From assembly GCA_964016885.1 (NCBI GenBank), contig OZ024743.1, positions 361,026,001 to 361,090,000 of the forward strand: 64,000 nt of DNA, in the 5' to 3' direction. Source of the DNA: Eledone cirrhosa. Its lineage: Eukaryota. Positions 3,254 through 63,840 of this stretch are shown here, piece after piece (positions within the stretch are counted from its first letter, which is position 1; every line of letters starts with the position of its first letter). Made by a program: the position numbers and the translations under genes. Below the pieces are notes generated by a model that was not told where the DNA came from, ran no database searches, and worked only from the letters and a program-made list of their open reading frames with translations.

Positions 3254-6200
3254 AGTTGCATTTATCTTGCTTTATGTTCATACGAGTTATCACCAAGTCA
3301 CAACCAGTGACCTCAAGAGACAACAAGGTCCGCCATGTTCAAGAAAGAACATACATATTCACACATGCATCTTTAGTGTTTAGACATGTGATGTACTTAT
3401 ATTGACAGAATCTTCTTTAGTATATGGGCAGTTCCCATTAGTACTATCTTTTGTATTTCTCCTATACGCGGGTTTCCTGGGATTTGCGATAAGTAATCAA
3501 TAGACCCCTTAGGTATCATTCCCAGAGCGCCTACAACCACTGGTATTGTTTTAGGTCTCAATTTCCACATTTTTCCAATTTCTATCTCCAGGTCCTTATA
3601 CTTGCTCAATTTTTCAAATGCTTTTATAGATACATTCTTGTCTATTGGAACAGACATATCAATTAGCAGGCATACCCTCCTTTGAAAGTCCTTCAATATT
3701 ATATCAGGTCTATTTGCATCTATTTTTCGGTCTGTTTGGATGCTAAAGTTCCACAAGATTGAGATGTGATCTTTTTCAAGTATGTGAGGTGGTTGATGCT
3801 CCCACCAATTCTTTTGATGGGGCAGGTCAAAATGCTTACACATTATCCAATGTATGTATTGTGCAGCTCTGTCATGCCTGTTTAGGTATTCGGTTGGAGC
3901 TATAGGACTGCACATTGAAATTATATGGTCAATGGTCTCTGGTTGTTTTTTGCATACACGGCATAATGGGCTGCATCCATTTTTTATTATGTTGGGTTGG
4001 TAATTTTTTGTTGGCAGACACTGATCTTGTGCTGATATAATCAGTCCTTCAGTCTCCGATTTCAGTCGAGAGGATGCCAACCACTGATGGGTTAAAGTTT
4101 TGTCAACATCAGGATTGTTAGCTCGTTCTGGGTATTTTCCATGCAGAGGCTTTTCTTGCCATTTCTTAGCCAGTTTCTGTAGCAGTTCTTTATTTGCAGT
4201 TACTTTTACCTGCTTTGCTTTTTCTGTGTTTTCCATTTCAGCAGTAAATGGGACTTCTGAAATTTGTAGTCCATTACTGTATCTTTGTGCATCTTTTGTA
4301 ATGGAATATGATCTTTTGATGCTTTCGTGTTTCAAAACGAGTTTGATCATCCAATCATGTGATTCCCTTAGATATGTAGATAATCCAATTGTTGCAGTTT
4401 TCAACGCAATGTCTAACTGGATTAACACACGTCCTCCTTCTTTCCTAGGGAGATATATTCTATCTATATCTGCTTTAGGGTGATGCATTCTGTGCATGGT
4501 TAACAATTTTCGAATTTTTGTATCGAGCCTACGGATCTCTGTGCTTGACCAGTTGATGACATTGTAACTGTAGGTTACTACTGGTATGGCAAGCGTGTTT
4601 ATGGCATCGATCCTATTCCTTGCATTCAATTCCGTTCTTAAGATTGCTCTTACTCTGCGGTAACATTCCTTCCTTATCCTTTCCCTCATTGTCGAGTGCT
4701 TGATTCCGTCTCCTTCACAAACACCTAGATATTTGTAAGTTTTTTCTTGATCAAGTTCTCTTATCACGTTCCCCCGATCAAGATTAATGTCTGAACTCTT
4801 CAGCAGCTTTCCTCTGGTGAACGTTGCTTTGGCGCATTTATCTAGTCCAAACTCCATTTTAATGTCATCACTGAACTGCTTCACAGTGGATAATAGCCCT
4901 TGCAATTGTTCATCATATTTTGCAAATAGTTTCAGGTCATCCATGTAGAACAGGTGATTAATGGTTTTGTCATAGACTTTATATCCATGTTTTGTTTCAT
5001 TGAGCATTTTACTTAATGGTATAAGTGCGATGCAGAATAAAAGCGGTGATAAAGAGTCACCCTGAAAAATTCCACAATTAATATTAACTTCTCCAGCTTC
5101 CAGTGATTTTGTTTCACTATTCAAAAGGAGTGTCGTTTTCCATGTCTTCATACTGAATGACAAAAAACCCCTGAAAACGGGGGATATTTTGAAAATCTCT
5201 AAACATTTTTAAATCCAACTGTGTGGCAAACTATCGAATGCTTTTTTATAATCTATCCAAGCAATCGATAGATTTTTGTGTCTATTATGACAATCTTCCA
5301 GTATCATTTTGTTAATCAGAAGCTGATCCTTACAGCCATATGAGCCTCGTTTACACCCTTTCTGCTCAATGGGAAATAGGTCATTTGTTATCAGGTGGTC
5401 ATATGTGTATTCAGTTAGGACTGATGTTAACATTTTATACATTGTGGTCAAGCAAGTTATCGGTCTGTAATTTTGGGGATTGTTTGTCTCATCATTCTTC
5501 GGAAGCAGGAATGTAATGCCGTTAACTAGCGATGATGGTATCTTTTCTGGCTCCTTAACTATTTCATTGTAAAGTTGGGCTAACAGCTCATGAGACTCTG
5601 TGAAGGCATTTATCCAAAAGTTTTGTATTTTGTCTTTTCCTGGGGATTTCCATTTGCTGGTTTTTCTTAGAGCCAAGCGCAACTGTTCAACTGTTATATT
5701 TTCCCATGTTTGTTCCTCAAGGTGAGCTGTATCTTTCATTTGTCTGTCTCTCCATGGGGCATGTATGTTATGAACTTTTTCTTCGGCCCAGATCTTTTCC
5801 CAGAATTCTTGCACTTCCTCCTTGGATGGTATTGATTTAGCAGTTATTGTTGACTTACCAATTTTTCTGTAGAAGTTTCTTTGGTTGTTTTTGAACATAT
5901 TATTGTCCTTATAGAATCTAGATCGTTTTTCAAAGCGCCTTATACGAGCAGCTTTGGCCGACACTTTTTGCTTGATTATTTCTATCAGCACGACTATGTC
6001 ACATGTTGATTTTATACTGTACCTTTTTTTCAATTTTCTAAGTTTAGTTTGTTTAACATGTTCACCTACTTTATAGTTTGTTAAAATTTCTATGTCAGAT
6101 CGGAGAAGGTTTATTTGGCGATTAATGTTCTCTTGCCAAGTAGATTTCTTGTGGGAATTCCTTTGTTTTTTCATCTTCACTCCACATAAGTGAGTGGTGA

Positions 6201-7225
6201 CTTTAGCCGATGCATAATAGAGATGATTTAAATCAGTAATGTTTAGTTTGTTTGTGATGATAATGTTTTTGATAATTATGTTAGTCTTGTGTATTATCTT
6301 TTGGTTCTGTTTGGAGTTGTGGATCTTAGAGAGGGTGTCTCGTTGCCCCATGTCAGATTCTTTCATTTTCATCCATTCAATCATAATTTCATCCTTCAAG
6401 TTGGCAAGTTCATTCTCATTCATTTCTTTATCATTTACGATCTCATTATTTTCATTTGGAGTTTCATCCTGAGCATGCACTCCCTCCACTTTTTCGATCC
6501 TTTCTTTAATTTGTTCTGTTGCCAGTGATTCCGCCCCAACCCTGGGATTCAAAGTGTTACAGTTTACCTAGTTTTCACTGACACATGTTTCATTTTCCCT
6601 TCGCTGACTTTGTGCTAATAGCTTGATCTGATCAATTTCTATATCAGTTAGTAACTTTTTTCTTACAATATTTCTTCGTATATTGGCTAGTTTGTGACTG
6701 TCAATATAGCCTCTGTTTTCGGGATGTTTCTTTTTCCAGTTGATACATGTCTGTTCTGTATTCGATGTATTTGATGGGTAGTACATGGCAGTGTAGAAAG
6801 CCTCAAGGACTTCTTTATTATCTTCCCTTGACCATTTTTCTCTCTTTTTCTTTGGATTTCTTGGTGGTGAGCATGGAGGGCCAACAGTAGGAGTATTCCG
6901 GTTATGGGAGGTCTCCAGCTCCGAAGTGATGGGAAGGTTTGAACCATTAGCTGATTTTCCGACCCCAGTCTGGTTCCTCTCTGAGGGACGCGGCCCTTTT
7001 TTACCCGGGTGACGGCCGATCCGGTATGAGATTTTATCATTAGACATTTACTTTATTTTGTCGCGTTTTATCCTTATCCGCCAAGGGGTAATCATTTCGT
7101 GTTACCACTTCTAGAACGAGTGTCAACCAAGATTAGAAGGGTCGTTCTCCCCTAGAGACACGGCTATTCCCCGCCGGCCGCCATCCCGGTATATCTTGGT
7201 CACAGGGTTTTCTTTTTGTTGTTTT
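3222..7225 (-). mobile_element. Full-length R4/Dong-clade non-LTR retrotransposon
   Basis: 5' UTR 7048-7225, single ORF 7047-3397, 3' UTR 3396-3252, (AAT)n tail 3251-3222. Confidence 0.95.
3397..7047 (-). pseudogene. RT-CCHC-RLE polyprotein of about 1216 codons with two in-frame stops
   Basis: ORFs 6568-7047, 5209-6552 and 3397-5163 share one frame and are separated only by TAG (6568-6570) and TAA (5209-5211). Motifs: KWSREDNKEVLEAFY, GIFQGDSLSP, FYMDD, CRVC..ETIDHIISMC, RHD, RPDII..LIDMSVP..KLSKY. Confidence 0.93.
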
Positions 7226-8194: not shown

Positions 8195-8534
8195 ATTGCA
8201 AAATACATTATATATACATCCATATATATATTGCTATTTCAGAGCTCCAATTCTAATTTTTAATTTCTGCCTGACCAACAACCGCTCTGCATAATCAGCT
8301 CCTGATTATTTACTAGATTTCTATAAGAATATAACATCATTGATCTCAGTAGACAGGTGGGTAGTTGTCCTTGATAAGCTTCAACCAAAGCGAAACATGT
8401 CATGTCGGCTTATCTCCCCTGTTTGCTGAGATCAAAGTGAGTGAATTTGTCACTACTTTAAAACAATAGCTTACGGTCTTCAAAATGCTTTTAATTAAGC
8501 ATAAAGTGTATTGCAAAATACATTATATATACAT

Positions 8535-8545
<11 letters not shown>
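8195..8545 (+). mobile_element. HHR repeat family A (about 315-nt unit, 1.1 copies)
   Basis: About 35-bp direct repeat ATTGCAAAATACATTATATATACATCC at 8195 and 8510. HHR-like motif at 8361-8416: TTGATAA-GCTT/AAGC-GAAAC-ATGTCAT-GTC. Homologous to 15039-15547. Confidence 0.7.
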
Positions 8546-8621
<76 letters not shown>

Positions 8622-11083: not shown

Positions 11084-11122
11084 TGAACAAGTACTTTCAT
11101 GCTTTCGCAATCTTCAGGTTCA
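11084..11122 (-). ncRNA. Minimal type I hammerhead ribozyme, intact core
   Basis: UGAAC-CUGAAGA-U-UGC-GAAA-GCA-U-GAAAG-UA-CUU^GUUCA. Stem I 5 bp, stem II with a GAAA tetraloop, palindromic stem III (AAGUACUU). Lies in a unit of about 215 bp (10935-11150) between microsatellites. Confidence 0.8.
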
Positions 11123-12169: not shown

Positions 12170-12735
12170 AACTGGCGGACTTATTGAATTTTGACCCATG
12201 GCCGATTACAAAACACAAAAGACGCAATATCAAACACCCCTGCCCACATTAAAAAGTTTCACTGAGAAATAAGAACATGAAATTATAGAAAAAAAAAGAT
12301 AGATAGAAAAAAAAAAAAATTAACATCAACGCTTCGACAAATTTCCTTACAGATACATCGCCATATATTTCTTAACACCTCACTATGTCTTTTCCTTTTT
12401 ATTCGCACATTTTACTATTTCTACTCTTTCTCATATATATTACTTCTTCACCGTCTCCTCGCAAACTCTCCTGCCTGATATGATCCCCATACAACTCAAT
12501 CTAACCATGGCCACGTAGCCGAAGTGATAATTAGATTCAGTTTTTCATCTGCGATCGAAAATGAATATTTGAAACGATACTCTGAGCGAAACTGGTGTGT
12601 GAAAACCTACCTCTATTTAGAACAAAATAGCAATTATTTTATATGAATTAATTCCTTTTTATTGTTTATTGTAGTTTTGCATGTATATTAAAACACTTTA
12701 TGTTCATCTCTAAATAGTTTTTGTTATTTTTCGTA
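12170..12735 (+). mobile_element. Probable decayed PLE 3' end with degenerate HHR
   Basis: HHR-like TTTTCAT-CTG_CGA...GAAAC-TG-GTG-TGTGAAAA at about 12541-12605. Pyrimidine-rich UTR upstream, ends in TA repeats. Confidence 0.4.
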
Positions 12736-12741
12736 TATATA

Positions 12742-13309
12742 TTCACTAGCTCTGACAGTTTGGCAGGTGAACAGTGAGCTGTACTGATGAAGGATGACAC
12801 CACGAACATTTAGTGTCTGCGGTTCTGTTCACATGCCAAAACAAGAGCAAGAATGAAGGGTTCATTCTACTGACATGGCTATAAAATTGAGGCTTGTTTG
12901 CATAATTGCAAACGAATCGAATGTTATTATTAATATTCGCAAATCTCAGATTCCATGGTTGAATACAATAAATGGAATCTGAGATTTGCGAATATTAATA
13001 ATAACATTCGATTTGAGAGCAATTATGCAAACAAGCCTCAATTTTATAACCATGTCAGTAGAATGAACCCTTCATTCTTGCTCTTGATTTGGCATGTGAA
13101 CAGAACTGCAGACACTAAATGTTCGGGGTATCACCCTTCATCAGTACAGCTGACAGTTCACCTGCCAAACTGTCAGAGCTAGTGAAAGTATATGCTATTT
13201 TCAAAAATACGCAGTGACTAATCGGCTTGATTTGCATATTAGAAGACTGGCCGATCAGTCAGATCTGCATATTACCAGATCCACTGATCAGCCAGATTTG
13301 CATATCAGC
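12742..13309. mobile_element. HHR repeat family B, fold-back copy (arms 12742-12956 and 12972-13186) plus extension
   Basis: About 215-bp inverted repeat with a 15-nt loop. HHR in each arm. 13187-13309 carries three repeats of about 33 bp containing AT(T/C)TGCAT. Homologous to 52043-52367. Confidence 0.85.
13104..13151 (-). ncRNA. Type I HHR of family B (inverted twin at 12777-12824, + strand)
   Basis: AGCUGUA-CUGAUGA-AGGG-UGAUA-CCCC-GAAC-AUUUAGU-GUC^UGCAGUU. In the + twin stem I is extended by GUGAACAG/CUGUUCAC and UUUGGCA/UGCCAAA. One core A is missing (GAAC). Confidence 0.7.
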
Positions 13310-13312
13310 TAT

Positions 13313-13730
13313 ATTATCGTTTTCGGTGCACCCGGCCGATTATCCCACTCGATATGCAAATTGGGCTACTCAGCCGTTAATATGCATAAGGTAAGTATAT
13401 ACGTTCAACAATCTGGCAGGAAGGTATACGTTGCTGACGATAGCTAATAAGCTTGAAACTAGTACAGCGTTCCTTTGTCAGTGTTAAACAAACGAGCAAC
13501 GATTGTTGCTGGACACTACGGCTTAATACGGGATGTTTGTTTACAAACACACCGAGCATTAAAATAAATGTTCAGTGAACCCATATGTACATATATATAT
13601 GTGTGTATGTATATATATACATACTACTGTACGTCTGTATACATATATGTATGTACGTTTACATACTTATATTTAAGTAACAGCCGTACTAAGAGTGGGA
13701 AATGAAATTTCGTTTCTTTTTTCCGTTTAT
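13313..13730 (+). mobile_element. HHR repeat family C, one monomer of about 420 nt
   Basis: Near-identical to units at 25451-26215 and 51091-52041, where the tandem period is 422 bp. Confidence 0.88.
13428..13470 (+). ncRNA. Minimal type I HHR of family C
   Basis: ACGUUG-CUGACGA-UAGCU-AAUA-AGCUU-GAAAC-UA-GUA^CAGCGU with palindromic stem III (ACUAGU). Other copies at 25721-25763 (-), 25961-26003 (+) and 51653-51695 (+). Confidence 0.85.
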
Positions 13731-13754
13731 ATATATATATATATTATATATATA

Positions 13755-13930
13755 TAAGAAAGAAAGTGCGGCAAGAAACCAGATCGAACATGACGAACCA
13801 GAGTACTCGATACGTAGCGTAGTAGAGTGGGTAATAGGAAAAGTGTCAGCTGAGCTCCGGCCCTCCGGATCTAGCTGTCGAAACGGCCGGAGCTCAGCCG
13901 TCTGGGTCCTGACTCTTTTCCCTATCCATA
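13755..13930 (+). repeat. Short GC-rich TA-flanked dispersed repeat (family E)
   Basis: Shares GAAA.TG.GG.AAG.AACCAGAT and TAGC.GTC.AAACGGC..GAGCT.AGCCGTC.GGGTCC with 27193-27290. Confidence 0.6.
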
Positions 13931-14283: not shown

Positions 14284-14995
14284 ATCTCTATAATTGAAAG
14301 CACTTGTTTGAACCTTACTTATTCTAATCAAAATATTCTAACTCTTATGGTTACATTTACATATTTAAGTTAATCATAATAGCGTATCTTACTTACTTTT
14401 TCTACTCACTCTTTTTGTCAGTAATATCAGTCGTAAACAGCCCGCAAATAGACAGTCATATATGAACACAGACATACAATCTTGTATCTAAGTAAATAAA
14501 ATAAAAATACAATAACCAGAAAGTAGTATAATAGGCTGTAGTATGATAGGAAATTATGCCTGGTTTAACTTTGCTGTGATACGAAAATACAGTTAATGTA
14601 TTTTTTCTCAAATGCCATATTCGTCAACTACGACAAAAATATCTATGAGGACACATAACAACATATATACTTCCAAGGTTTCTATCCTACCAGACAACAG
14701 GCATTGGATGAATAACTTGACAATATATCCAGGTGTTATTATTCTCCCGCGTTTCAAATTCACTCTAACTCTGAAGAAATACGTTTAATTCGGTGCATAT
14801 ATGATCTTATGTATGCGTGTATAGGTAGTCATATATAAAAGCAGTACTACACACTTTTAGCTTCCTTTTGCACTGGACTTTCACTGAAGAAATACATTAA
14901 ATAAAAATCCAACAGTGTGAAATAATAGATTATATATATATACATTTTTAACAGTAGTAACATCTTGATATCCATTGTGAATCGACCCGTAATTA

Positions 14996-15038
<43 letters not shown>

Positions 15039-15545
15039 GAATTGGTGCTCTGAAATAGCGTTATATATATGAATGCATATATAGGGTATTTTCCAATACA
15101 CTGTATGCTTAATTAAAAGCATTTAGAAGACCTTACGCTATTGTTTTAGAGTAGTGACAGTCTCACTTACTTTAATTTTCAGCAAACAGGGGAGATAAAG
15201 CTGACAGAGCTCTGTTTCGCACTTTTTGGTGCTTATTAAAGTTAACTACTCATCTTGTTTGCTGCAAATCATGAATGTTTGATTCTTATAAAATTCTAGT
15301 AATAATCAGGAGCTGATTATACAGAGCGGTTGCCGGTCAAGCAGAAATTGAAAATTAGAATTGGTGCTCTGAAATAGCGATATATATATATATGAATGTA
15401 TATATAGTGTATTTTGCAATACACTGTATGTTTAATTAAAAGCATTTCGAAGACCTTACGCTATTGTTTTAGAGTAGTGGCAGACTCACCTACTTTAATG
15501 TTCAGCAAACAGGGGAGATAAAGCTGACAGAGCTCTGTCAGCTTT

Positions 15546-20445: not shown

Positions 20446-23345
<2,900 letters not shown>

Positions 23346-23420
23346 TATATATATATATATATATACATACATATATATATACATATATATATATACACAT
23401 ATATTTATGTGTGTGTGTGT

Positions 23421-23775
23421 GTACGTATGCGTACTTGCATTTATGTATCAGCTGTGCTAGGGCGGGAAATAAAATTTTAATTTTGTATTTAATATTCGGC
23501 ATGGTCAGCCATAACTCGCTTGGTATGCAAATAAAGCTACCCACCCGAGGTATACTTCAGAAAACACTATATATTTTCAACCGTTCAACATTCGCAGAAT
23601 GGCATGCAGCCTGATCAAGGGTAATGACCCAGAAACATGCTGATTGTTCCTCGATGCCAGTGTTGAACAAATGGATGACGATTGCTGATCGGTATGGCAC
23701 TGCTTTAATCGTTTGCTTACAAACGAATCGAATATTATTATTAATGTTCGATATAACCCATATGTATGTGTACAT
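23421..23775 (+). mobile_element. HHR repeat family D (divergent relative of B and C)
   Basis: Shares ATGCAAAT, CGTTCAACA / CAGTGTTGAACAAA and TTACAAAC with C, and CAAACGAATCGAAT.TTATTATTAAT with B. Broken HHR at 23607-23642 (CTGATCA..GAAACAT, cleavage triplet lost). A related fragment lies at 26260-26330. Confidence 0.7.
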
Positions 23776-25450: not shown

Positions 25451-25455
<5 letters not shown>

Positions 25456-26215
25456 GGAAAATATGAAACGAAATTTCATTTCAAACTCTTAGTACGGCTG
25501 TTACTTAAATATAAGTATGTACACGTACACACATATATGTATACAGACGTACTGTAGTATGTATATGTATATAGATACATGCACACATATATATATATAT
25601 GTACGTATGGATTCATCGAACATTTATTATAATGCTCAGTGTGTTTGTAAACAAACATCCCGTATTAAGCCGTAGTGTCCAACAACCATCGTTGCTCGTT
25701 TGTTCAACACTGACAAAGGAACGCTGTACTAGTTTCAAGATTATTAGCTATCGTCAGCAACGTATACCTTCCTGCCAGATTGTTGAACGTATATACTTAC
25801 CTTATGCATATTAACGGCTGAGTAGCCCAATTTGCATATAGAGTGGGTTAATCAGCCGCGTGCACCGAAAACGATAAAAGGAAAAAATTAAAATTGGGCT
25901 ACTCAGCCGTTAATATGCATAAGGTAAGTATATACGTTCAACAATCTGGCAGGAAGGTATACGTTGCTGACGATAGCTAAAAAGCTTGAAATTAGTACAG
26001 CGTTCCTTTGTCAGTGTTGAACAAACGAGCAACGATGGTTGCTGGACACTACGGCTTAATACGGGATGTTTGTTTACAAACACACCGAGCATTATAATAA
26101 ATGTTCGGTGAATCCATACGTACATATATATATATATATGTGTGCATGTATATATATATATACATACTTAAGGTAGGTCTGTATACATATATGTATGTAA
26201 GTGTACATACTTATA
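25451..26215. mobile_element. Family C fold-back pair (minus monomer 25451-25877, plus partial 25891-26215)
   Basis: Inverted copies of the 13313-13730 unit, each with an HHR, flanked by (TA)n. Confidence 0.9.
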
Positions 26216-26354
26216 TATATATATATATATATATTTGTGTGTGCGTGTATATACAGTATATGTGTGTGGACCTATGCATACGTACATTATATATCAGGAG
26301 TACTAGGGCGAGAAATAAAATTCTAATTTTATATATATATATATATATATATAA

Positions 26355-27359: not shown

Positions 27360-30300
27360 TTAGGGAAGCAGAAGATTACTTATTGTGATCCAGTTCGTGG
27401 TTAAGAAAGCCAGTTTCATGGATGGTTTCAACGTACGGTTAGGCGTAACTCCACAAGTTTGTAAGAATTCCATTCAATCTTGGAGTATAAAGTATAAAAT
27501 GGAAAACACAGGTAAGCATTAAGAGAAGGATTTTATCCAGGTATTTACGTCCGTTTCATTGGTAAGTGCAACCTTATATTGCTATACTGCAAATAGCAGC
27601 CACTCAATGATAATTGTTGTTCACGTCCAAATTTTCAAAAGAGTGAGTAAGTTACTCTTGAAATAGTTCTTAATATATAGAGAAAAATTTTTTTTTAAAT
27701 TGTATTTACTGGTATAGAGAGAGAGGAAGGGGAAATAGAAGGTGAGGGGACAAACGGAAAAGTAGAGAGAGAGAGAGAGGAAGAGGGACAAGAGTTAAGA
27801 AGTAGAGTGACAAACTGAGATGGAGGGAGGCGTAGAGATGGAAGGACTTATTGATCAGTTTTGATATGTAGACTTCATGTCGTCGAATGTGGTGAGTTAA
27901 AGAGAATTAAATTGATCATAGTGGGAGGGATGGATAGAGAGAGAAAGAGATAACTATATATATATAAAATAAAGATAAAGATAATAATGACAAAAATAAA
28001 AGCAAAGAAGGGGGGAGAAAGAAGAAAAGAAAAGATAGCCAAAAAGGGTAGGAAAGGAAGGAAGAAAACGAAGAAATAGAAGAGGAATCAAGGAGAAGGG
28101 AGGGATATAGGTAGTGGTTTTTGTGGGTAATTAAAAGGGTCTAGATACAATAAGAGGGTACAAAGTCTGAGTATATGCAGTTTGTCAGTTGGTAGTAAGA
28201 GGTTAAGGGTTCGATTTGCACTTGTAGTGCGAACACTTTTCTTTGAGTCTATGGCTACAATAAATTGATCTTTCGATTTTATTGTTGAGTAACTTATTCT
28301 TCGAACTCAAATTGTGGAACAGCTCAAGGTCACATAATCGACAGCTTCTCATACCACTCCGATATGGGGGCGCGTTCGATAATTTTTCAACTTCAGTGTG
28401 TATTGATGGTTACTTTCCCTCAGTTGCCAGGTCTTGATTGCAGGGTAGTTACATAACGATGCTGGGAATGTTTCATTGCGTAACGGTGTGTATACCAACG
28501 GGCTTCAAATGTATTCCCAGTCGCTCCGATGTAATACCATTTCGGGAAAATTAGTAAACATATATTAGACACAGTGATAGCACAGATGAAGAATAAACTA
28601 GTGATTAAACTATGGGGTAACGCTACCGAAACAATTAAGTGGTTTAACTATATAGCTAACAAAAATTATTTAAATTTATACAATTTGACATTAACGACTA
28701 TTACTCCTCTATATCCACCAACACCTTGGATAAAGCCTTAGCATTCGCCAAAGCCAATTCTGACCTAACAGACGACGAGATAAAAATCATATTAGCTGCT
28801 AGGAAAACAATAATTAAATTTGAAAACGCCTATTGGGAACGTAAGGATAGATTATATAACTTTGACATCACGATGGGGGCTAACGACTCGGCTCAAGTCA
28901 CAGATTTAGTAGGTATTTACATAGCCAGTAGTTTACAGAGTGAGTTTAGCAACCTTCACGGTGGAATCTACAGAGACAACGCCCTTCTCCTAGTAAAGAA
29001 CCTAAATAACCAAGCATAGAAAGACTCCGTTAGAATATTAGAAAGACTCTCGGGAAACTAGGCCTTAGCATAACGTATGAGCGTAGCACTAAAGCAGTTA
29101 ACTTTTTAGACGCCACGCTTAACCTAAATACGGGACTTATAAGACCTTTTCAGAAGATTAATGAAAACTTAGCATACATCAACTGTAACTCAAACCACCC
29201 ACTATCCATAATTAAATCCATTCCACGCAGCATATCCCTTAGGATTTCCCGCCTTTCGTCTAACCGACAAATCTTCGAGGAACATGCAGAATACTACAAT
29301 ACCGCATTAGACAAGGCAGGACACTTAGATAGAGTAGGATATATATATTAAAGCCTCCGCAAAGCGCACACGAACACGCATAACACAAACTCCAGAAACA
29401 CACGCACACACACACTTACTCATAGAACTACAAAGTATACGGTAAATAGAAATACAACATCGAAATCAAACAAGTCACGCAATAGAAAATATATTTGGTA
29501 TAACCCCATATTTAACACCTCTATTAGTACTAACCTACCCTCTACCTTCTTTATAATAATAAATAAGCACTTTCCAGATTTACATAGATATAGCAAAATC
29601 CTTAACACTAAATCTATTAGACTATCTTACACCACGGCACCAAATATAGAGGCACACATTAAGATGCTTAACGATAAAAAGATACATAACAACACCAGAA
29701 CACAAATTTACAACAATAACAATACAATCACCATTGAACACAACAGAATATCTAATACACAACCACCCACTAATATGCAAACAAAACGTAACACACTTGT
29801 ACAGGCATCGCAGCCCACCAATAATGCCAAAGTTGCCCATGACAAGAATTGTAACTGCCACCAACCTGAAACCTGTCCATTACATAATGAATGTATGCAG
29901 TCTAACCTGGTTTACCAATCAACAGTGGAATCAGACAACTAGAAATGTTATGACATCGGAGCGACTGGGAATATATTTAAAGCCCGTTGGTATACACACC
30001 GTTACGCAATGAAACAGCATCGTTATGTAACTACCCTTGCAAACAATACCTGGCAACTGAGGGAAAGTAACCATCAATACACCCTGAATTGGAAAAAATT
30101 ATCGAACGCGCCCCCATATCGGAATGGTATGAGAAGCTGTCGATTATATGACCTTGAGCTGTTCCACATTTTGAGTTCGAAGAATAAGTTACACAACAAT
30201 AAAATCTAAAGATCAATTTATTGTAACCATAGACTCAAAGAAAGGCTTTCGCACTACAAGTGCAAATCGAACCCTTAACCTCTTACTACCAACTGACAAA

Positions 30301-30998
30301 CTGCATATACTTAGACTATATTCCCTCTTATTGTATCTAAACCCTTTCAATTACCCACAAAAACCAATACCTATATCCCTCCCTTCTCCTTCATTCCTCT
30401 TCTATTTCTTCGTTTTCTTCCTTCCTTCCCTCCCCTTTTTGGCTATCTTTTCTTTTCTTCTTTCTCCCCCCTTCTTTGCTTTTATTTTTGTCATTATTAT
30501 CTTTATCTTTATTTCATATATATATAGTTATCTCTTTATACCCCAATCTCTCTCTCTATCCATCCCTCCCACTATGATAAATTTAATTCTCTTTAACTCA
30601 CTACATTCGACGACATGAAGTCTACATATCAAAACTGATCAAAGAATCCTTCCACCTCTACGCCTCCCTCCATCTCAGTTTATCACACTACTTCCTAACT
30701 CTTCTCCCCCTTCCTCTCTCTCTATACTATTCCGTTTGTCTCCTCACCTTCTAATTCCTCTTCCCCTCTCTCTATACTAGTATATACTATCCCCCAAACA
30801 TCTTTTTCTCTATATATTAAGAACTATTTCAAGAGTAACTTACTCACTCTTTTGAAAATTTGGACGTGAACAACAATTATTATTGAGTGGCTGCTATTTG
30901 CAGTATAGCAATATAAGGTTGCATTTACCAATGAAACCGTCGTAAATACCTGGATAAAATCCTTCTCTTAATGCTTACCTGTGTTTTCTCTTTTATGC
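27360..30998 (+). mobile_element. Hydra-like PLE: truncated RT + GIY-YIG with an inverted 3' duplicate of about 1.2 kb at the 5' side
   Basis: Plus strand from 28544: GKISKHIL..QFDINDYY..FDITMGANDSAQVTDLVGIY..IYRD..NFLD..SNHP; linker CNCHQPETCPLHNEC..VY; IGATGNIFKARW..H; CRL..E. 27490-28543 is the reverse complement of 29942-30990. Confidence 0.9.
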
Positions 30999-31011
30999 TA
31001 TATATATATAT

Positions 31012-42140: not shown

Positions 42141-42190
42141 CATACATACATACATACATACATACATACATACATACATACATAATACAT

Positions 42191-45100
42191 CAGTCAACGC
42201 GATCAGTCGCATATTTTGGCGTGGGAGACTATTTATTAAATTTAAGATGAATACTATCTCCGACAGTAATGCCACAACTACAGCCAGGTTGAATAACTGG
42301 TTATTCTTCTAACTATCCCTTCTGAAGACACCTTTTATTCGAATTCGTAGAGATATCCGACTAAATACATAATTCATTTTACAAGGATTTGCTACAAACA
42401 GCATGGCTGAACACAACATCAACAAGAAAATTAAAGAAGTATCGAAGACAAAAAACAAAGAAGGTAATCAAACTTTATTCAGTTGTAGCTACAGAAGGAA
42501 CCGAAATTATAAATCGCATTTCTCTTGGAGTTGCGAACTTAATAATGATTTATTTAATTGTTATAAAATGGCAAAAAATAATCCCTCCATTGGCTATATA
42601 AATAGAATGAAGCTACACTGGGACGAAATGCACCCAGGGCTAAACTATTTCACAGCGAAACAATTACCGCAACAAGCGACGTTTGTTGAACGTAAAAATA
42701 AGATAATTATTATTAATTGTAAGTCCCCCACAACAAACATGTAATCAACAACACGTGCTACAGATCGCCATGCTACTAGAATTCCTAGCAGCCAGGTCGA
42801 ACACCGCCTTGAAACAACTATGCCTGTACCATCTAAGTCTACCTCGAATGCTGGAGAAAACACTATCGATAATAATAATAATCGAAGAAATAATAATAAT
42901 AATCGAATAAATGTGACAGCACGTATACCATCCGAGTCTACCGCGACTGTTGTGGAAAATACTATCGATAATGATAATCAAAAGTATAAACAATTGAAAA
43001 TATCCCTCAACGAAATCTTCCAGAGAGAAATTAACTCATGTATAAATATCTCTCTGGCTGAACGTGTTAAAATGACAATGGTGAATAAAAAACCAAATAA
43101 TGAAATACTACGTGTTATTGACGAAATTGGGGATGAATATTTACGACGGATAAAAACCCCAACCTTTTGGCAATCAACGCCTGTTTATATGCCTTAGCAA
43201 TGAAAGTGAAGCATTATCTTGGTTAGAGCAGAGATATTAACAAGAACAAAACACCACCAAAAATACCATCATATATAACTAAAATAGAAAAAAAGAGTGC
43301 TGACCTACGAAAAAACATAGGACATGTGATAATGCTCCTTACATGCAAACAAACACAAAAAAACCTCACTCCTCACCAACGAAGAGTCAAAAATAAAATA
43401 GAGACGATGTTTGGTAACAGTAGCACCAGAACTCTCCAATATAAGCTGATCACCCTCAAACAAGAATTGAGAGCTGTTAGCGAAAAACGCCAATACCTGA
43501 AGAAGGTAGATGAGAGAAAAGTGCTTAATAAAAGATTCAGACGAAACCAAACATCAGTCTAGAGAGATATGAAGGGCAAAATAATAAGTGTCACTGAGGC
43601 CCCATCCCAGAAAGACATAGATTCCTTTTGGAGAAAAATATGGGGTGAAAAGAAGAATTTCAACCAAGACGCCGTGTGGCTAAGAGAAATCCGAAAGAAC
43701 TATTGCTCCTACACTACAACAAAAACATACGAAATAAGTGAGGGTACCCTTGAGACTGTGATAGGAAAATTCCAAGATAAGAAAACACCAGGAAGGGACA
43801 TGATTGTCGGCTACTGGTACACAAAACTAATATTCTATCGGAGGTATCTAACTGACCTCTACCAACAAGTTCTTAAGGGAGATACACTTATAGCAGAATG
43901 GTTGACATTAGCACAAACGTTACTGGTCCCCAAGAACAAAGACATCCACTTGGCTAAAAACTACCGACCCATTGCATGCCAGAACCTGATGTATAAGATG
44001 TATACAGCCTGCCTCAACCTGTTCCTCCAAGATCACTGTGAAAATAATAACATCATCACAGATGAACAAGCAGCTGGAAAGAAAAGGGTTTGGGGATGTG
44101 CTGAACAACTCCTCATCAACAAAACTGCGATGTCGGAGGTGCGAAAACTTAGGAGGAATATGACTACAGTCTGGCTGGACTACAAGAAAGCTTTCGATTC
44201 TGTTCCCCACTCTTGGGTGATAGAGGCCCTCCAACTTGCTAAAGTCCCAGACATTATTGTCAGAGCCATAGAGAGGCTGTCTTCTTCTTGGGCTACTATC
44301 CTAAGGTTAAAGACAGAGAGGGAGGACTCTATTTTCACTAATAAAATAAAATATTGCAGGGGTATATTTCAGGGGGGACAGTCTCTCTGTGATATTGTTC
44401 ATCTTGTCATTAAACCCCTTGTCCTTTCTGCTCAAGAAATGTGAGGGATACATCATTGGCTCACAGGAGGACAGAAATACGAACCTAACCCATAACTTCT
44501 TTGTGGACGATCTGAAACTCTATGCCAAAACATGGATGAGATGAAGAAAAATCTTGACCTGGTTACAACGTTCTCAAAGGATATAGGAATGGAGTTTGGC
44601 CAAGATAAATGCTCATACATGACTGTAAAGCGGGGAAAAACAACAACCCAATCTAGCAACATTGTCATCAATGGTCTAACTGTTTCACCGATATCTGATG
44701 AGGACTGCCACAGATACCTGGGGATAGATGAGAAGATATCCTATAATGGTATCTGTAATAAAGAACGCGTAACCATGGAATACTATACTCGATTAAGAAA
44801 GATCTGGTCATCGGAACTCTCTGCGCAAAACAAAATAGTGGCTCACAGTGTGTTTGCTGTGCCTGTCCTAACACCAACGTTTGGAATACTCAATTGGACG
44901 ATAGACGAAATCCGAGCAGTTGATGTTGGAACTCGAAAAATACTGAACAACACCGGAAACTTCCACATCAACAGTGACATAGACCGCCTTTACTTGAAAC
45001 GTAAGCAGGGAGGCAGAGGCCTAACATCAGTCCAGACATTTGAATGTCGCATCATATCTCCCCGACAACATCTACGAACCTCGAAGCGTAGGAGCCCGCT

Positions 45101-46256
45101 TCTCGAGCAAGTCTATCTGCATGAAACAGATAAGATCATGAGGATTGGGAAGGAACTCCTTCAGAGATATTCCCTGTGTGACAATCAAAACCTCACACCC
45201 AGTGATGTCGCTCAGCAGTATCGCAGTGAATCCATGGATGAAAAACTGCATGCCTAACAGCAAACAATCATGCATGGATATGTTGCCAGGAAGCTCCAGA
45301 GTGAGAGTAATATAGATAAGGAAAATAGTCTATCTTGGACCAACAACCGCTATATTGGCTCCCACGTTGAAGGATACGCTTTTGCAATCCAAGAACAGGA
45401 GATTAGCACGAAATACCTGATTCACAAAAGAGATAGGGATGCAGGCAAAACACCTAGATGTGATAACAAGTGCAGACTCTGCAGAGCTAACATCGAGGAT
45501 ATCACCCATGTCATCAGCAGCTGGTCAAAGATGTCATCGCGGTACTATCTGCCTATGAGGCATGATGTAGTGGCCAAAACACTGTACAATGCAGTTCGTA
45601 AAAAAGATAGCCCCGATAATAAACACATTAAAAGCTACAACAATGTGGAATACATTCATGTACATAATATGAAAAAGTACTGGTGGAATGTTACAGTAAA
45701 AACCCCTATAAAATGCAGGCATAACAGACCAGATATTATGATATGGGACAGGGAGAAGAAAACATGCACAGTAGTGGAAATTAGCTGCCCAGCAGATGCC
45801 AATATAATATCATGGATTAGTGAAAAGGAGAATATTTATGCAGAACTGATGAGAAATCTGCAGATACTCCACCCTGATTACACCTTCAGATTTATGCCTG
45901 TGATTATTGGGGCACTGGGATATGTTAGTAACTGCCTCAATACAAATCTTGAGAAGCTAGGCTTCACAGGAACAGAAAGAACACAACTAGTTAGGAAATT
46001 ACAAGTACAATCCATTAATGGAACAGTAAAAATATGTAAAACATTCAAAAAGTTCTAATGACTCCATATACACATGTACAGAAAAAATAATATACACATG
46101 CACACATATAACTCAAATTATACACCTCCACACATACACTAACATCCATACTGCACACACATGCTTGCATATATATATACTTAGTTGATGTTATGTACAT
46201 TCCAATTAGAGAGACTTGTATCTATGTTTTAGGAATTATAAACCCTGAAAAACATA
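42191..46256 (+). mobile_element. Full-length degenerate R4/Dong-clade element in (TACA)n, copy 1
   Basis: ORF pieces 42403-46058 with NYRPIAC, WLDYKKAFDSVPHSW, GIFQG, FVDDLKL, CRLC..EDITHVIS, RHD, RPDIMIWD..VEISCP..K..Y, PVIIGALG. TACA repeats at both ends. Confidence 0.93.
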
Positions 46257-51090: not shown

Positions 51091-52041
51091 ATAAACGGAA
51101 AAAATGAAACGATATTTCATTTCCCACTCTTAGTACGGCTGTTACTTAAATATAAGTATGTACACGCACATACATATATGTATACCGACGTACAGTAGTA
51201 TGTATATATATATATATATACATATATGCACACATATATATATGCACGTATGGATTCACCGAATATTTATATATATGCACACATATATATATGCAACGGT
51301 GGTTGCTAGACACTACGGCTCAATACGGGATGTTTGTTTACAAACACACCGAGCATTATAATAAATATTCGGTGAATCCATACGTGCATATATATATATG
51401 TGTGCATGTATGTATATATATATATATATACATACTACTGTACGTCGGTATACATATATGTATGTACGTGTACATACTTATATTTAAGTAACAGCCGTAC
51501 TAAGAGTGGGAAATGAAATATCGTTTCATTTTTTCCGTCTATCGTTTTCGGTGCACCCGGCCGATTAACCCACTCGATATGCAAATTGGGCTACTCAGCC
51601 GTTAATATGCATAAGGTAAGTATATACGTTCAACAATGTGGCAGGAAGGTATACGTTGCTGACGATAGCTAACAAGCTTGAAACTAGTACAGCGTTCCTT
51701 TGTCAGTGTTGAACAAACGAGCAACGGTGGTTGCTAGACACTACGGCTTAATACGGGATGTTTGTTTACAAACACACCGAGCATTATAATAAATATTCGG
51801 TGAATCCATACGTGCATATATATATATGTGTGCATGTATGTATATATATATACATACTACTGTACGTCGGTATACATATATGTATGTACGTGTACATACT
51901 TATATTTAAGTAACAGCCGTACTAAGAGTGGGAAATGAAATATCGTTTCATTTTTTCCGTTTATCGTTTTCGGTGCACCCGGCCGATTAACCCACTCGAT
52001 ATGCAAATTGGGCTACTCAGCCGTTAATATGCATAAGGTAC
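51091..52041 (+). mobile_element. Family C: inverted fragment (51091-51270) plus about 1.8 head-to-tail units
   Basis: ATCGTTTTCGGTGCACCCGG at 51541 and 51963 (period 422). HHR at 51653-51695. Confidence 0.9.
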
Positions 52042-52042
52042 G

Positions 52043-52367
52043 TATATATGCTATTTTCAAAAGTACACAATGATTGATCGGCCTGATTTGCATATTAGCA
52101 GACTGACTGATCAGTCAGATCTGCATATTAGCAGATCCACTGATCAGCCAGATTTGTATATCAGCAGACTGGCGAGTCAGTTTCCTGTATACGAGCGGTA
52201 AATGGCCGGCGTTGCCAAATTCAAACAAAAAATAAAATGTTCGCTCTACATGGCTGAATACAATCAATTCAATCTGAGTTTTTCGAATATTAATAATAAC
52301 ATTCGATTTGGTTGCAATTATGCAAACAAGCCTCAATTTTATAGCCATGTCAGTAGAATGAACCCTT
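52043..52367 (-). mobile_element. Family B partial copy, circularly permuted relative to 12954-13309
   Basis: Block order is [13187-13309]-[83 new nt]-[12954-13072]. It stops before the HHR. Confidence 0.85.
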
Positions 52368-52374
52368 TATCGAA

Positions 52375-57138
<4,764 letters not shown>

Positions 57139-60060: not shown

Positions 60061-60167
60061 CCTAACGTAAACTTTAGCAGGAGTTCACAACAAGGGGATT
60101 ACCATATAATTAAAAGAATTTCACGTTTACATACATACACACATAAATACATACATACATACAATGA

Positions 60168-63100
60168 TAGTCAACGCGATCAGTCGCATATTTTGACGTG
60201 GGAGACTATTTATTAAATTTAAGATGAATACTATCTCCGACAGTAATGGCACAACTACATTCGGGTTGAATAACTGGTTATTCTTCTAACTATATCTTCT
60301 GAAGACACCTATTATTCGAATTCATAGAGATATCCGACTAAATACATAATTCATTTTACAAGGATTTGCTACAAACACCATGGCTGAACACAACATCAAC
60401 AACAACATTAAGGAAGTATCGACGACAAATAACAAGGAAGGTAATCAAACTTTATTCAGTTGTAGCTACAGTAGAAACCGAAATTATAAATCGCAATTCT
60501 CTTGGTGTTGCGAACGTAATAATGATTTATTTAATTATTATAAAATGGCAAAAAACAATTCCTCCATTGGCTATATGAATAGAATGAAGCTACACTGGGA
60601 CGAAATGCACCCAGGGCTAAATTATTTCACAGCGAAACAATTACGCCAACAAGCAACGTTTGTTGAACGTAAAAATAAGATAAATTTTATTAATTGTAAG
60701 TCCCCAACAACAAACATGTTATCAACAACACGTGCTACAGGTCGCCATGCTGCTAGACTTCCTAGCAGCCAGGTAGAACAGCGCCTTTGAAACAACTATG
60801 TCTGTAAGAAACTTGACACCACCTGTACCATCGAAGTCTACCTCGAATGCTGGTGAAAACACTATCGATAATAATAATAATCGAATAAATGTGACACCAC
60901 GTATACCATCCTAGTTTCGATACCTACTATCGAATAATACCTACTATCGATAATGGTAATCAAAAGTATAAACAATTGAAAATTTCCCTGACAGAAATCT
61001 TCCAGAGAGAAATTAACTCATATATAAATATCTCTCTTGCTGAACGTGTTAAAACGACAATGGTGAATGAAAAAAACAAATAATGAAATACTACGTGTTA
61101 TTGACGAAATAGGGGATAAAAACCCCAACATTTTTGCAAATCAACGCCTGTTTATATGCCCTAGCAACGACAGTGAAGCATTATCTTGGTGATAGCATAG
61201 ATATTAACAAGAACAAAACACCAGCAAAAATACCACCATATATAACTAAAATAGAAAAAAAGAGTGCTGACCTACGAAAAAACATAGAATATGTGACAAT
61301 GCTCCTTACAAACACAAAAAAACCTCACTCTTCACCAACAAAGAGTCGAAAATAAAATAGAGACGATATTTGGTAACAGTAGAACCAGAACTCTGCAATA
61401 TAATCTGATCACCCTCAAACAAGAATTGGGAGCTGCTAGCGAGAAACGCCGATGCCTGAAGAAGGTAGATGAGAGAAAAGTGCTTAATAAAAGATTCAGA
61501 CGAAACCAAATATCAGTCTATAGAGATATGAATTGCAAAATAATAAGTGTCACTGAGGCCCCATCCCAGAAAGACAGATTCCTTTTGGAGAAAAATATGG
61601 GGTGAAAAGAAGAATTTCAACCAAGATGCAGTGTGGCTAAGAGAAATCCGAAAGAACGATTGCACCTACATTACAACAAAAACATACGAAATAAGTGAGG
61701 GTACCCTTGAGACTGTGATAGGAAAACTCCAAGATAAGAAAACACCAGGAAGAGACATGATTGTCGGCTACTGGTACAAAAAACTAATATTCTATCGGAG
61801 GTATCTTACTGACATCTACCAACAAGTTCTTAAGGGAGATACACTTATACCAGAATCGTTGACATTAGCACACATGTACTGGTCCCCAAGAACAAAGACA
61901 CCCACTTGGCATAAAACTACTGACCCATTGCATGCCAGAACCTGATGTATAAGATGTATACAGCCTGCCTGAACCTATTCCTCCAAGATCACTGTGAAAA
62001 TAATAACATCATCACAGATGAACAAGCAGCTGGAAAGAAAGGGGTTTGGGGATGTGCTGAACAACTCCTAATCAACAAAACTGCGATGTCGGAGGTGCGA
62101 CAACTTCGGAGGAATATGGCTACAGTCTGGCTGGACTACAGGAAAGCTTTCGATTCTGTTCCCCACTCTTGGATGATAGAGGCCTTCCAACTTGCTAAAG
62201 TTCCAGACATTATTGTCAGAGCCATAGAGAGGCTGTCTTATTCGTGGGCTACTATCCTAAGGTAAAAGACAGTGAGGGAGGACTCTATTTTCACTGATAA
62301 AATAAAATATTGCAGGGGAATATTTCAGGGGGGAGTGTCTCTCTGTGATGTTATTCATATTGTCATTAAAACCCTTGTCCTTTCTGCTCAAGAAATGTGA
62401 GGGATACATCATTGGCTCACAGTAGGACAGAAATACGAACCTAACTCATAATTTCTTTGTGGACGATCTGAAACTCTATGCCAAAGACATGGATGGGATG
62501 AAGAAAAATCTTGACCTGGTTACAACGTTCTCAAAGGATATAGGAATGGAGTTTGGCCAAGATAAATGCTCATACATGACTGTAAAGCGGGGAAAAACAA
62601 CAACCCAATCTAGCAACATTGTCATCAATAGCCTAAGTGTTTCACCGATATCTGATGAGGACTGCTACAGATACCTGGGGATAGATGATAAAATATCCTA
62701 TAATGGTATCTGTAATAAAGAACGCGTAACCAGGGAATACTACACCCGATTAAGAAAGATCTGGTCATCGGAACTCTCTGCACAAAACAAAACAGTGGCT
62801 CACAATATCTTTGCTGTGCCTGTCCTAACGCCAACGTTTGGAATACTCAATTGGACGATAGACGAAATCCGAGCAGTTGATGTTGGAACTCGAAAAATAC
62901 TAAACAACGCAGGAAACTTCCACATTAACAGTGACAAGTCTATCTGCATGAAACAGATAAGATCATGAGAGTTGGGAAGGAACTCCTCGAAAGATATTCT
63001 CTGTATGATAATCAAAAACTCACACCCAGGGATGGCGCTCAGCACTATCGCAGTGAATCCATGAATGAAAAACTGCATGATTATCAGCAAAAAATGTTGC

Positions 63101-63840
63101 ATGGAGATGTTGCCAGGAAGCTCTAGAGTGAGAGTAATATAGATAAGGAAAGTAGTCTATTTTGGACCAACAACCGCTATATTGGCTCTCACTCTGAAGG
63201 ATACGCTTTTGCAATCCAGGAACAGGAGATTAGCACGAAATGCCTGATTCACAAAAAGATAGGGATGCAGGCAAAACACCTAGATGTGATAACAAGTGCA
63301 GACTCTGCAGAACTAACATCGAGGATATCACCCATGTCATCAGCAGCTGTCCAAAGATGTCATCGCGGTACTATCTACCTATGAGGCATGATGTAGTGGC
63401 CAAACCACTGTACAATGCAGTTCGTAAAAACGATAGCCCCGATAATAAACACATTAAAAGCTACAACAATGTGGAAGACATCCATGTACATAATATGAAA
63501 GAGCACTGGTGGAATGTTCCAGTAAAAATCCCAATAAAATGCAGGCATAACAGACCAGATATTATGATATGGGACAGGGAGAAGAAAGCATGCACAGTAG
63601 TGGAAATTAGCTGCAGATGCTAAGCATATACCCATGCACACACACAACTCAAAAGATACACATACACACATACAATAACATCCATATCTACACATGCATG
63701 CATGCATACATAATCTACCTTGTTGATGTTGTGTAAATTCCAATGAGAGAATCTATTGTGTCTATGTTAGAAACCGACTCACTCTCTATTGGGAACAAAT
63801 TTGTGAAATTATAAAACCAGATGAACATACATACATACAT
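60168..63840 (+). mobile_element. Degenerate R4/Dong-clade element in (TACA)n, copy 2
   Basis: Colinear with 42191-46256 and has the same 5' start. Deletion of about 130 bp at 62937 and loss of the RLE C-terminus at about 63620. TACA repeats at both ends. Confidence 0.93.

What the first reader, a model, noticed from the sequence alone, without database searches (positions are those of the whole stretch)
12742..13730. Two different HHR families (B and C) are fused in opposite polarity at two separate loci
At 13309/13313 antisense B runs into sense C. At 52041/52043 sense C runs into antisense B through a GTATAT microhomology. The junctions differ, so these look like independent events. Possible explanations are RT template jumping between co-packaged RNAs, targeting of one family into the other, or a composite ambisense element of about 860 nt with a ribozyme on each strand, reminiscent of viroid-like RNAs. 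The B piece at the second locus stops before its HHR.
Basis: partly seen in the sequence, partly recalled or inferred. Interest (0 to 1): 0.75.

Follow-up and report, generated by a model that had tools for sequence, protein, structure and literature searches.

The report
Two ribozyme repeats sharing TA targets
Two common families of small repeats carrying a predicted self-cutting RNA motif sit end to end twice in this stretch of an animal genome, most likely because both insert into the same TA microsatellites rather than because they form one two-sided element, so the finding is ordinary.

Summary
Both junctions are in the sequence. B (~438-nt unit) and C (~420-nt unit) are abundant non-LTR-retrozyme-like repeats with type I hammerhead motifs. 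Both end in (TA)n and often insert as inverted two-arm pairs, like Penelope elements. The junctions are not a composite element. Each is unique in the 3-Gb genome. Locus 1 is head-to-head and locus 2 tail-to-tail. The B ribozyme core is broken at locus 1 and absent at locus 2. Sixteen other B-C contacts were found: 11 tail-to-tail, 5 same-direction, none head-to-head. In the one normalised test, 9 contacts compare with 1.6 expected at random and 6-15 expected from shared (TA)n targeting. At both loci C looks younger than B. Best reading: C landed in the TA tract beside an older B, and at locus 2 about 500 nt were likely lost between two internal TATATA motifs. Mixed B/C two-arm insertions are estimated at under 0.5% of two-armed B insertions. 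Locus 1 could still be one such rare event (15%). This scan already described a matching 422-nt two-armed family on other DNA of this genome.

The parts
12734..12742 (.). Left (TA)n remnant, joined to B at its internal ATATAT (unit positions 321-326)
   Evidence: One-armed B copies L150, L185 and L194 have 5' ends at unit 316-333 joined to (TA)n in the same way
12735..12956 (+). Sense B arm (unit 321 to 104), an inverted duplicate of the neighbouring antisense B; hammerhead-like core at 12784 is broken
   Evidence: shares 7 rare variants with the antisense arm and differs at 12 of 209 sites
12953..12958 (.). CCATGG palindrome at the tail-to-tail B/B join (likely fold-back point)
   Evidence: a 75-nt contig spanning 12927-13001 with no differences, at the depth of the unique flank, in runs X1-X3 of one sample
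12954..13309 (-). Antisense B, 356 nt (5' end at unit 205, 3' end at 122); hammerhead core at 13144 lacks the family's GAAAC
13310..13313 (.). TATA spacer at junction 1 (head-to-head), likely a remnant of the TA target
   Evidence: single copy genome-wide for this motif pair
13314..13728 (+). One full C unit with a predicted type I hammerhead (core 13434, U.U at the base of stem II, palindromic ACTAGT stem III, predicted cut after 13464), 3' end at the canonical unit end
13729..13756 (.). Right (TA)n tract, the target side of the C 3' end
51093..51275 (-). Inverted arm of the locus-2 C insertion (3' end at unit 420, into (TA)n on the left)
51294..52048 (+). Tandem C arm, 755 nt, young (tandem units differ at 2 of 319 sites); one intact hammerhead motif at 51659; ends abnormally at unit 88 instead of 367
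52042..52049 (.). Junction 2 (tail-to-tail): overlap of C's internal TATATA (unit 83-88) with B's internal ATATAT (unit 321-326)
   Evidence: single copy genome-wide for this motif pair
52044..52370 (-). Antisense B, 327 nt (unit 326 to 1), no hammerhead; older than the C beside it
25452..26219 (.). Third C insertion in the window: an ordinary two-armed copy (ends 420 and 367, both into (TA)n) with no B; internal control

Best explanation
B and C are two separate, abundant hammerhead-bearing repeat families whose 3' ends join (TA)n microsatellites, and the two junctions likely arose independently when a younger C copy inserted into the TA tract beside an older B copy. Shown: unit structure, (TA)n-joined 3' ends at a few fixed unit positions, inverted two-arm insertions, single-copy junctions, and a contact rate that matches shared TA use. 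Inferred: both are non-autonomous RNAs copied by a Penelope-like reverse transcriptase/endonuclease primed from nicked (TA)n. At locus 1 a one-armed B left TA on its 5' side and C was primed from the right end of that tract, leaving TATA between them. At locus 2 a two-armed C first faced B tail-to-tail across TA, as at 10 other loci, and roughly 500 nt (C 89-367, the TA tract, B 327 onwards with its ribozyme) were lost between the two internal TATATA motifs, either at insertion or in later microhomology repair. The extra sense B arm at locus 1 is likely a fold-back copy of its neighbour.
For: 3' ends followed by TA repeats: B 66 of 104, C 51 of 63 mapped pieces, including internal pieces. Fixed ends: B mostly 108/113 paired with 127-153, C 420 paired with 367. 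Two-armed insertions: 34 of 58 B loci, 16 of 37 C loci. Tail-to-tail contacts in the normalised search: 9, all across 10-46 nt of TA, against 1.6 uniform and 5.9-15.3 under a shared-TA model built from 288 tracts per 400 kb. Sixteen distinct other contacts: 11 tail-to-tail, 5 same-direction; one (L141) is a direct join without TA, like locus 2. Rare substitutions: locus 1 B 20/336 vs C 8/323 (P=0.033); locus 2 B 14/324 vs C 3/325 (P=0.007). No shared derived variants between the loci in the B segment X or in C. Penelope-like hallmarks as described in PMC8557442 passages.
Against: Two tight joins 39 kb apart remain a coincidence: if 50-200 B-C contacts exist genome-wide (my rough extrapolation), only 0.03-0.4 windows of 64 kb are expected to hold two, and tight joins are a subset. 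Locus 1 is the only head-to-head contact found. Seven of the B arm's 20 rare changes are shared with its inverted twin; without them B (about 3.9%) and C (2.5%) are close in age. The shared-TA expectation rests on assumed fractions of terminal motifs (0.5-1.0 and 0.7-0.9). A C 3' end at 88 was not seen among the 37 position-picked C loci, though the L014 array ends at 87. No autonomous partner was identified, and no pre-insertion allele was seen.
Confidence: 0.72

Rival explanations
1. Locus 1 is one twin-primed insertion in which the left arm was copied from a B RNA and the right arm from a C RNA, joined at their 5' ends.
For: Head-to-head geometry with both 3' ends pointing outwards is the normal two-arm layout. 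The spacer is only 4 nt. Divergence since the B fold-back (about 2.9% per arm) is close to C's 2.5%.
Against: No other head-to-head B/C join was found in two searches with a simulated joint sensitivity of 16%, giving at most about 19 genome-wide, under 0.5% of an estimated 3,700 two-armed B insertions. The total B divergence exceeds C's (P=0.033). The TATA spacer matches a target remnant. It cannot explain locus 2.
Confidence: 0.15
2. Both junctions are the two ends of one rearrangement: a 38.7-kb segment bounded by C was inserted into a single B with a 121-nt duplication, for example through a DNA circle.
For: The junctions look reciprocal (B segment 205-326 and C 1-88 occur at both), each is unique genome-wide, and they lie 39 kb apart.
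Against: The supposedly duplicated B segments differ at 11 of 120 sites with no shared derived change, while the locus-2 C units differ at 2 of 319. The locus-1 C lacks the private variants of the locus-2 C and differs from it at 17 of 412. No duplication of the intervening segment's ends was seen in 264 kb around the window.
Confidence: 0.05
3. B plus C form a composite ambisense, viroid-like element of about 860 nt with a ribozyme on each strand.
For: Unit lengths add to about 858 nt, and at locus 1 the two hammerhead motifs lie on opposite strands.
Against: Neither junction recurs. The B core is broken or absent. B and C fold mostly as separate domains, with 23 of 247 pairs crossing. The two loci use different breakpoints and geometries. 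Same-direction contacts also exist.
Confidence: 0.02
4. A reverse transcriptase jumped from one co-packaged RNA to the other within one cDNA strand.
For: TATAT microhomology at junction 2. Three same-direction contacts elsewhere (L142, L144, L145) have almost no spacer and could be such jumps.
Against: A jump between two sense RNAs gives same-direction joins. Both joins here are opposite-direction and would need an antisense RNA or DNA template (inference). The unequal ages at locus 2 argue against one event.
Confidence: 0.03
5. The B-C joins are assembly errors between repeats.
For: No contig bridging junction 1 by 31 letters on both sides was among the pieces listed (the list was cut).
Against: B and C share no long homology on which to mis-join. 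The left flank and the B/B join at locus 1 are matched by contigs at single-copy depth. Similar contacts exist at 16 other loci.
Confidence: 0.03

Closest known systems
Metazoan non-LTR retrozymes (Cervera and de la Pena 2020, PMC7229834: abstract, first of three parts of Results, Discussion and one passage read; Li, Clavereau and Pollet preprint 10.64898/2026.07.22.740005: parts 1-3 of 5 read)
   Same: Non-coding units of a few hundred bases, GC below 50%, type I hammerhead in each unit, monomers to long tandem arrays. C has the U.U at the base of helix II and the 2-bp helix III described for axolotl HHR_Amex2.
   Different: Expression, circularisation and cleavage are untested here. The parts read do not describe contacts between two retrozyme families or inverted two-arm insertions.
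Penelope-like elements (Craig et al. 2021, PMC8557442: passages read)
   Same: Partial tandems, inverted 5'-truncated arm, a 30-40-bp tail at one end (B ends 108/113 vs about 145), (TA)n target bias.
   Different: B and C encode no RT or GIY-YIG endonuclease; the C end offset is about 53-56 nt; no autonomous element carrying B or C as pseudo-LTR was identified.
Viroid-like RNAs with ribozymes in both polarities (e.g. PMC7461866, PMC10162972: search listing only)
   Same: At locus 1 only, hammerhead motifs lie on opposite strands.
   Different: Here single-copy genomic joins of two independent families, one core broken, little pairing between the halves, no evidence of RNA-to-RNA replication.
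TA-repeat fragility and microhomology repair (PMC12972899: abstract read; PMC13645644: search listing only)
   Same: AT/TA repeats form hairpins or cruciforms and stimulate deletions, which fits the loss at locus 2 and the fold-back at locus 1.
   Different: Shown in yeast and human cells; applied here by inference only.

Membership tests
Non-LTR retrozyme (family C) | Type I hammerhead with conserved core | tested here: met
   Descriptor passed at 13434, 25967, 51659 and in 44 of 51 copies with an intact 5' core
Non-LTR retrozyme (family C) | Tandem units of about 150-450 nt, non-coding, low GC | tested here: met
   About 420-nt units in arrays over 16 kb; longest stop-to-stop frame in L011 is 136 aa
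Non-LTR retrozyme (family B) | Type I hammerhead with conserved core | tested here: met
   GAAAC core in 62 of 72 copies; L030 passes the descriptor, but only 7 of 20 position-picked copies do; the two window copies fail
Non-LTR retrozyme (family B) | Tandem repeats with at least two consecutive hammerhead units | tested here: inconclusive
   Only partial tandems up to about 1.5 units were seen; no long B array among the loci fetched
Non-LTR retrozyme (B and C) | Expressed as linear and circular RNA that self-cleaves | not testable with these tools
   No RNA holder listed; no cleavage assay possible
Penelope-like element (autonomous) | RT and GIY-YIG endonuclease ORF between pseudo-LTRs | tested here: not met
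   No ORF of 150 aa or more in either element in the window; RT-like fragments lie near 5 fetched B/C loci without a pseudo-LTR layout being shown
Penelope-mobilised insertion | Inverted 5'-truncated arm, one-sided tail, microsatellite target | tested here: met
   34 of 58 B and 16 of 37 C loci two-armed with paired fixed ends in (TA)n
Ambisense viroid-like RNA | Functional ribozyme in each polarity of one unit | tested here: not met
   B core broken at locus 1, absent at locus 2
Ambisense viroid-like RNA | A fixed unit that recurs and folds as one self-paired circle | tested here: not met
   Each junction single-copy; 23 of 247 pairs cross the boundary in the linear fold
Ambisense viroid-like RNA | RNA of both polarities in cells | not testable with these tools
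   No RNA holder listed

The most novel reading that the evidence does not exclude
Locus 1 is a mixed two-arm insertion: one Penelope-type integration event copied two different ribozyme RNAs from the two sides of one break. That would show the two arms can be made by separate enzyme-RNA complexes and that B and C share one mobilising enzyme, while its rarity (under 0.5% of two-armed B insertions) would show that both arms normally come from one RNA or one family.
Probability: 0.15. Interest if true: 0.55.

Novelty: new member of a known kind. Interest (0 to 1): 0.22.

Why it matters
The main result is negative: no two-sided, viroid-like element. The useful by-product is a bound on a step of Penelope-type retrotransposition that PMC8557442 (passages read) calls undefined. 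Mixed B/C two-arm insertions are estimated at under 0.5% of two-armed B insertions, which suggests that both arms are normally copied from one RNA or one family. That inference holds only if B and C were active together and used the same enzyme, which was not shown. The work also gives a simple null for future scans of this genome: any two TA-targeting repeats will meet, mostly tail-to-tail.

Tried and rejected
Rfam: no hammerhead match at B or C; the miRNA hits reflect TA palindromes and inverted arms and all lie below gathering score. The repeat finder was swamped by TA repeats. The 3362- and 1254-nt spacings of C hits first suggested a full Penelope element, but the stretches are plain C arrays. 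The single-rearrangement idea was tested and rejected. RNA evidence: no RNA holder listed. Minimum-free-energy folds do not show the hammerhead junction itself, only the long stem I and stem II, so the ribozyme call rests on the descriptor. Partner search was limited to tblastn of two window RT/Penelope-like ORFs against fetched loci; a third ORF was translated on the wrong strand and gave nothing. Pfam gave RVT_1 for four of six window ORFs, and no GIY-YIG. Literature: searches listed no paper on joins between two retrozyme families; only titles and abstract starts were seen for most. Rows dropped before counts: window duplicates and repeated loci (L001, L005, L023, L053, L054, L056, L065, L135-L137, L140), the large arrays for end statistics, 2 of 60 B-motif and 3 of 40 C-motif stretches that held no element, and one 69% microsatellite hit (L161). 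Only 60 of 72 listed B loci and the first 40 stretches of listed C motifs, all from the start of contig C1, were fetched. Preprint supplements were not seen.

Full report
Observation. The window lies at G000:C4:361026001-361090000 of a 3.0-Gb genome; the TA-rich repeats suggest a cephalopod, which is my inference and was not tested. Reading both loci and mapping them by BLAST gives two layouts. Locus 1: TA remnant, sense B 12735-12956, antisense B 12954-13309, TATA, sense C 13314-13728, (TA)n. Locus 2: (TA)n, antisense C 51093-51275, sense C 51294-52048, antisense B 52044-52370. The first join is head-to-head (5' end to 5' end). The second is tail-to-tail and overlaps within GTATATAT. A third C insertion at 25452-26219 has no B.

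The two families. B is a 438-nt unit and C a 420-nt unit. Exact 3' motifs occur 7,695 times for B and 10,011 times for C, against 217 and 207 for the reversed controls. In 40 evenly spaced 10-kb stretches C was present in 6 and B in 1; in 20 neighbouring stretches C was in 3 and B in 1. C also forms head-to-tail arrays longer than 16 kb. C carries a type I hammerhead motif with a U.U at the base of stem II and a palindromic 2-bp stem III; 44 of 51 copies with an intact 5' core pass my descriptor. B has a GAAAC core in 62 of 72 copies, though only 7 of 20 position-picked copies pass the full descriptor. Both B copies at locus 1 carry a shifted core seen in 0 of 72 others, and fail. Cleavage was not tested.

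How they insert. 3' ends are followed by TA repeats in 66 of 104 B pieces and 51 of 63 C pieces. Among loci picked by position on contig C1, 34 of 58 B and 16 of 37 C insertions have two inverted arms meeting head-to-head. Their outer ends pair up: B mostly 108 or 113 with 127-153, C mostly 420 with 367. Partial tandems, an inverted truncated arm, a one-sided tail and (TA)n bias are the marks of Penelope-like insertion (PMC8557442, passages). Retrozymes are proposed to be mobilised by such elements (PMC7229834, Discussion; preprint 10.64898/2026.07.22.740005). That a Penelope enzyme moved B and C is inferred; no partner was found.

Is there a composite element? DNA searches across each junction returned only the window as a spanning match among the 40 best candidates scored of 687, 3,220 and 493. 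Exact two-motif patterns allowing 0-300 nt between B and C found one match each, the window's own. The locus-1 composite folds mostly as separate B and C domains: 23 of 247 pairs cross the boundary. With one ribozyme core broken and the other locus lacking it, the ambisense reading fails each feature I could test.

Is the contact rate more than chance? A C 3' motif followed within 20-150 nt by an antisense B 3' motif occurs 9 times (control 0), always across 10-46 nt of TA. Uniform placement predicts 1.6 (P about 5e-5). A model in which both ends choose among about 2.2 million TA tracts (288 per 400 kb) predicts 5.9-15.3, depending on assumed terminal fractions. Further patterns found 0 head-to-head (3.4 expected uniformly), 5 and 4 matches for the two same-direction patterns (about 3.5 expected each). 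After mapping, two of those were repeats and two more were tail-to-tail. The 16 distinct contacts are 11 tail-to-tail and 5 same-direction. None of 39 similarity-picked B loci, 58 position-picked B loci or 37 position-picked C loci touches the other family. So contact is enriched over uniform chance by about the amount that shared TA use predicts. The bias to opposite polarity follows from arms that point their 3' ends outwards.

Are the two loci one event? They look reciprocal, so I tested it. The B segment present at both differs at 11 of 120 sites with no shared derived change. The locus-2 C units share private variants with each other and differ at 2 of 319 sites, but the locus-1 C shares none and differs at 17 of 412. 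No duplication of the intervening segment's ends appears within 264 kb. The events are independent. Their closeness is a mild coincidence: 0.03-0.4 windows expected genome-wide for 50-200 contacts (rough).

Order of events. Rare substitutions are higher in B than in the adjoining C at both loci: 20/336 vs 8/323 (P=0.033) and 14/324 vs 3/325 (P=0.007). At locus 2 the left C arm ends at 420, so the right arm would be expected to end at 367; it ends at 88, on C's internal TATATA, and B begins on its internal ATATAT at 321-326. The simplest account is a tail-to-tail contact across TA that lost about 500 nt between those motifs, at insertion or later. TA repeats are known to form cruciforms and promote deletions (PMC12972899, abstract). 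L141 is a similar direct join. At locus 1 the TATA spacer fits a target remnant, since one-armed B copies often have TA on their 5' side. The two B arms there share 7 rare variants and meet at CCATGG, which fits a fold-back duplication; contigs from one sample match that join at single-copy depth. The B-C join itself was not bridged among the pieces listed.

What stays open. Locus 1 has the layout of a normal two-arm insertion with one arm from each family. Without the 7 shared variants, B and C there are of similar age. Simulating mixed pairs from 68 real B arms and 38 real C arms gives the two head-to-head searches a joint sensitivity of 16%, so zero further hits bounds such joins at about 19, under 0.5% of an estimated 3,700 two-armed B insertions. 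I put the mixed-insertion reading at 15%. A jump between sense RNAs within one cDNA cannot give either geometry (inference).

Verdict. Real junctions, ordinary cause. Two retrozyme-like families share a microsatellite target and sometimes meet. Earlier notes of this scan describe a matching 422-nt two-armed family and several sister families in this genome; none concerns B-C contacts. Interest 0.22.

Noticed in passing
L027, L029, L030, L032, L036, L038, L044, L047, L063 (also L127, L145, L157, L167, L180): A third, roughly 185-nt SINE-like element sits repeatedly at one site of family B (unit 74-90) with about 15 nt of B duplicated, and once in C (L077). Differing 5' truncations suggest repeated independent insertion at a hot spot. 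The second group of loci shows the same break in B; the insert was not checked there.
   Followed up: partly
B unit 211, 244, 277 and 321-326; C unit 41 and 83-88 (window 13189-13309, 13354-13401): Both families have octamer-like ATGCAAAT motifs and a TATA-like motif upstream of the hammerhead and T-runs near their 3' ends, resembling an snRNA-type promoter (resemblance recalled, not tested). Junction 2 joins the two TATA-like motifs; junction 1 places the two upstream regions back to back.
   Followed up: partly
L011-L016, L021-L022 (G000:C28:43.95 Mb and 44.45 Mb; C1:96.98-97.03 Mb): Family C forms satellite-like arrays of dozens of units with 2-, 3- and 8-unit periodicity among the best hits; no long B array was seen.
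   Followed up: partly
window 8195-8611 and 14994-15538: Another repeat with weak Rfam hammerhead HH9 matches at 8357-8423 (+) and 15184-15253 (-), related to a 310-nt tandem array 45-49 kb right of the window.
   Followed up: no
window 11089-11122, minus strand: An isolated match to the type I hammerhead descriptor beside a long TA tract; may be chance.
   Followed up: no
window 54226-55797 (-), 22852-23556 (-), 29352-29939 (+), 27486-31004: Decayed RT or Penelope-like ORFs (only the first has a weak RVT_1 match) and a 1-kb inverted repeat pair 27486-28543/29942-31004.
   Followed up: partly
window 3397-7047 (-), 42147-46058 (+), 60128-63614 (+): Broken non-LTR retrotransposon copies with RVT_1; the second and third are 92-94% identical.
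   Followed up: no
L191, L192: B-B tail-to-tail contacts in 2 of 58 position-picked B loci (gaps of 48 and 82 nt), more than shared TA use alone would suggest; may reflect local re-insertion or fold-back.
   Followed up: no
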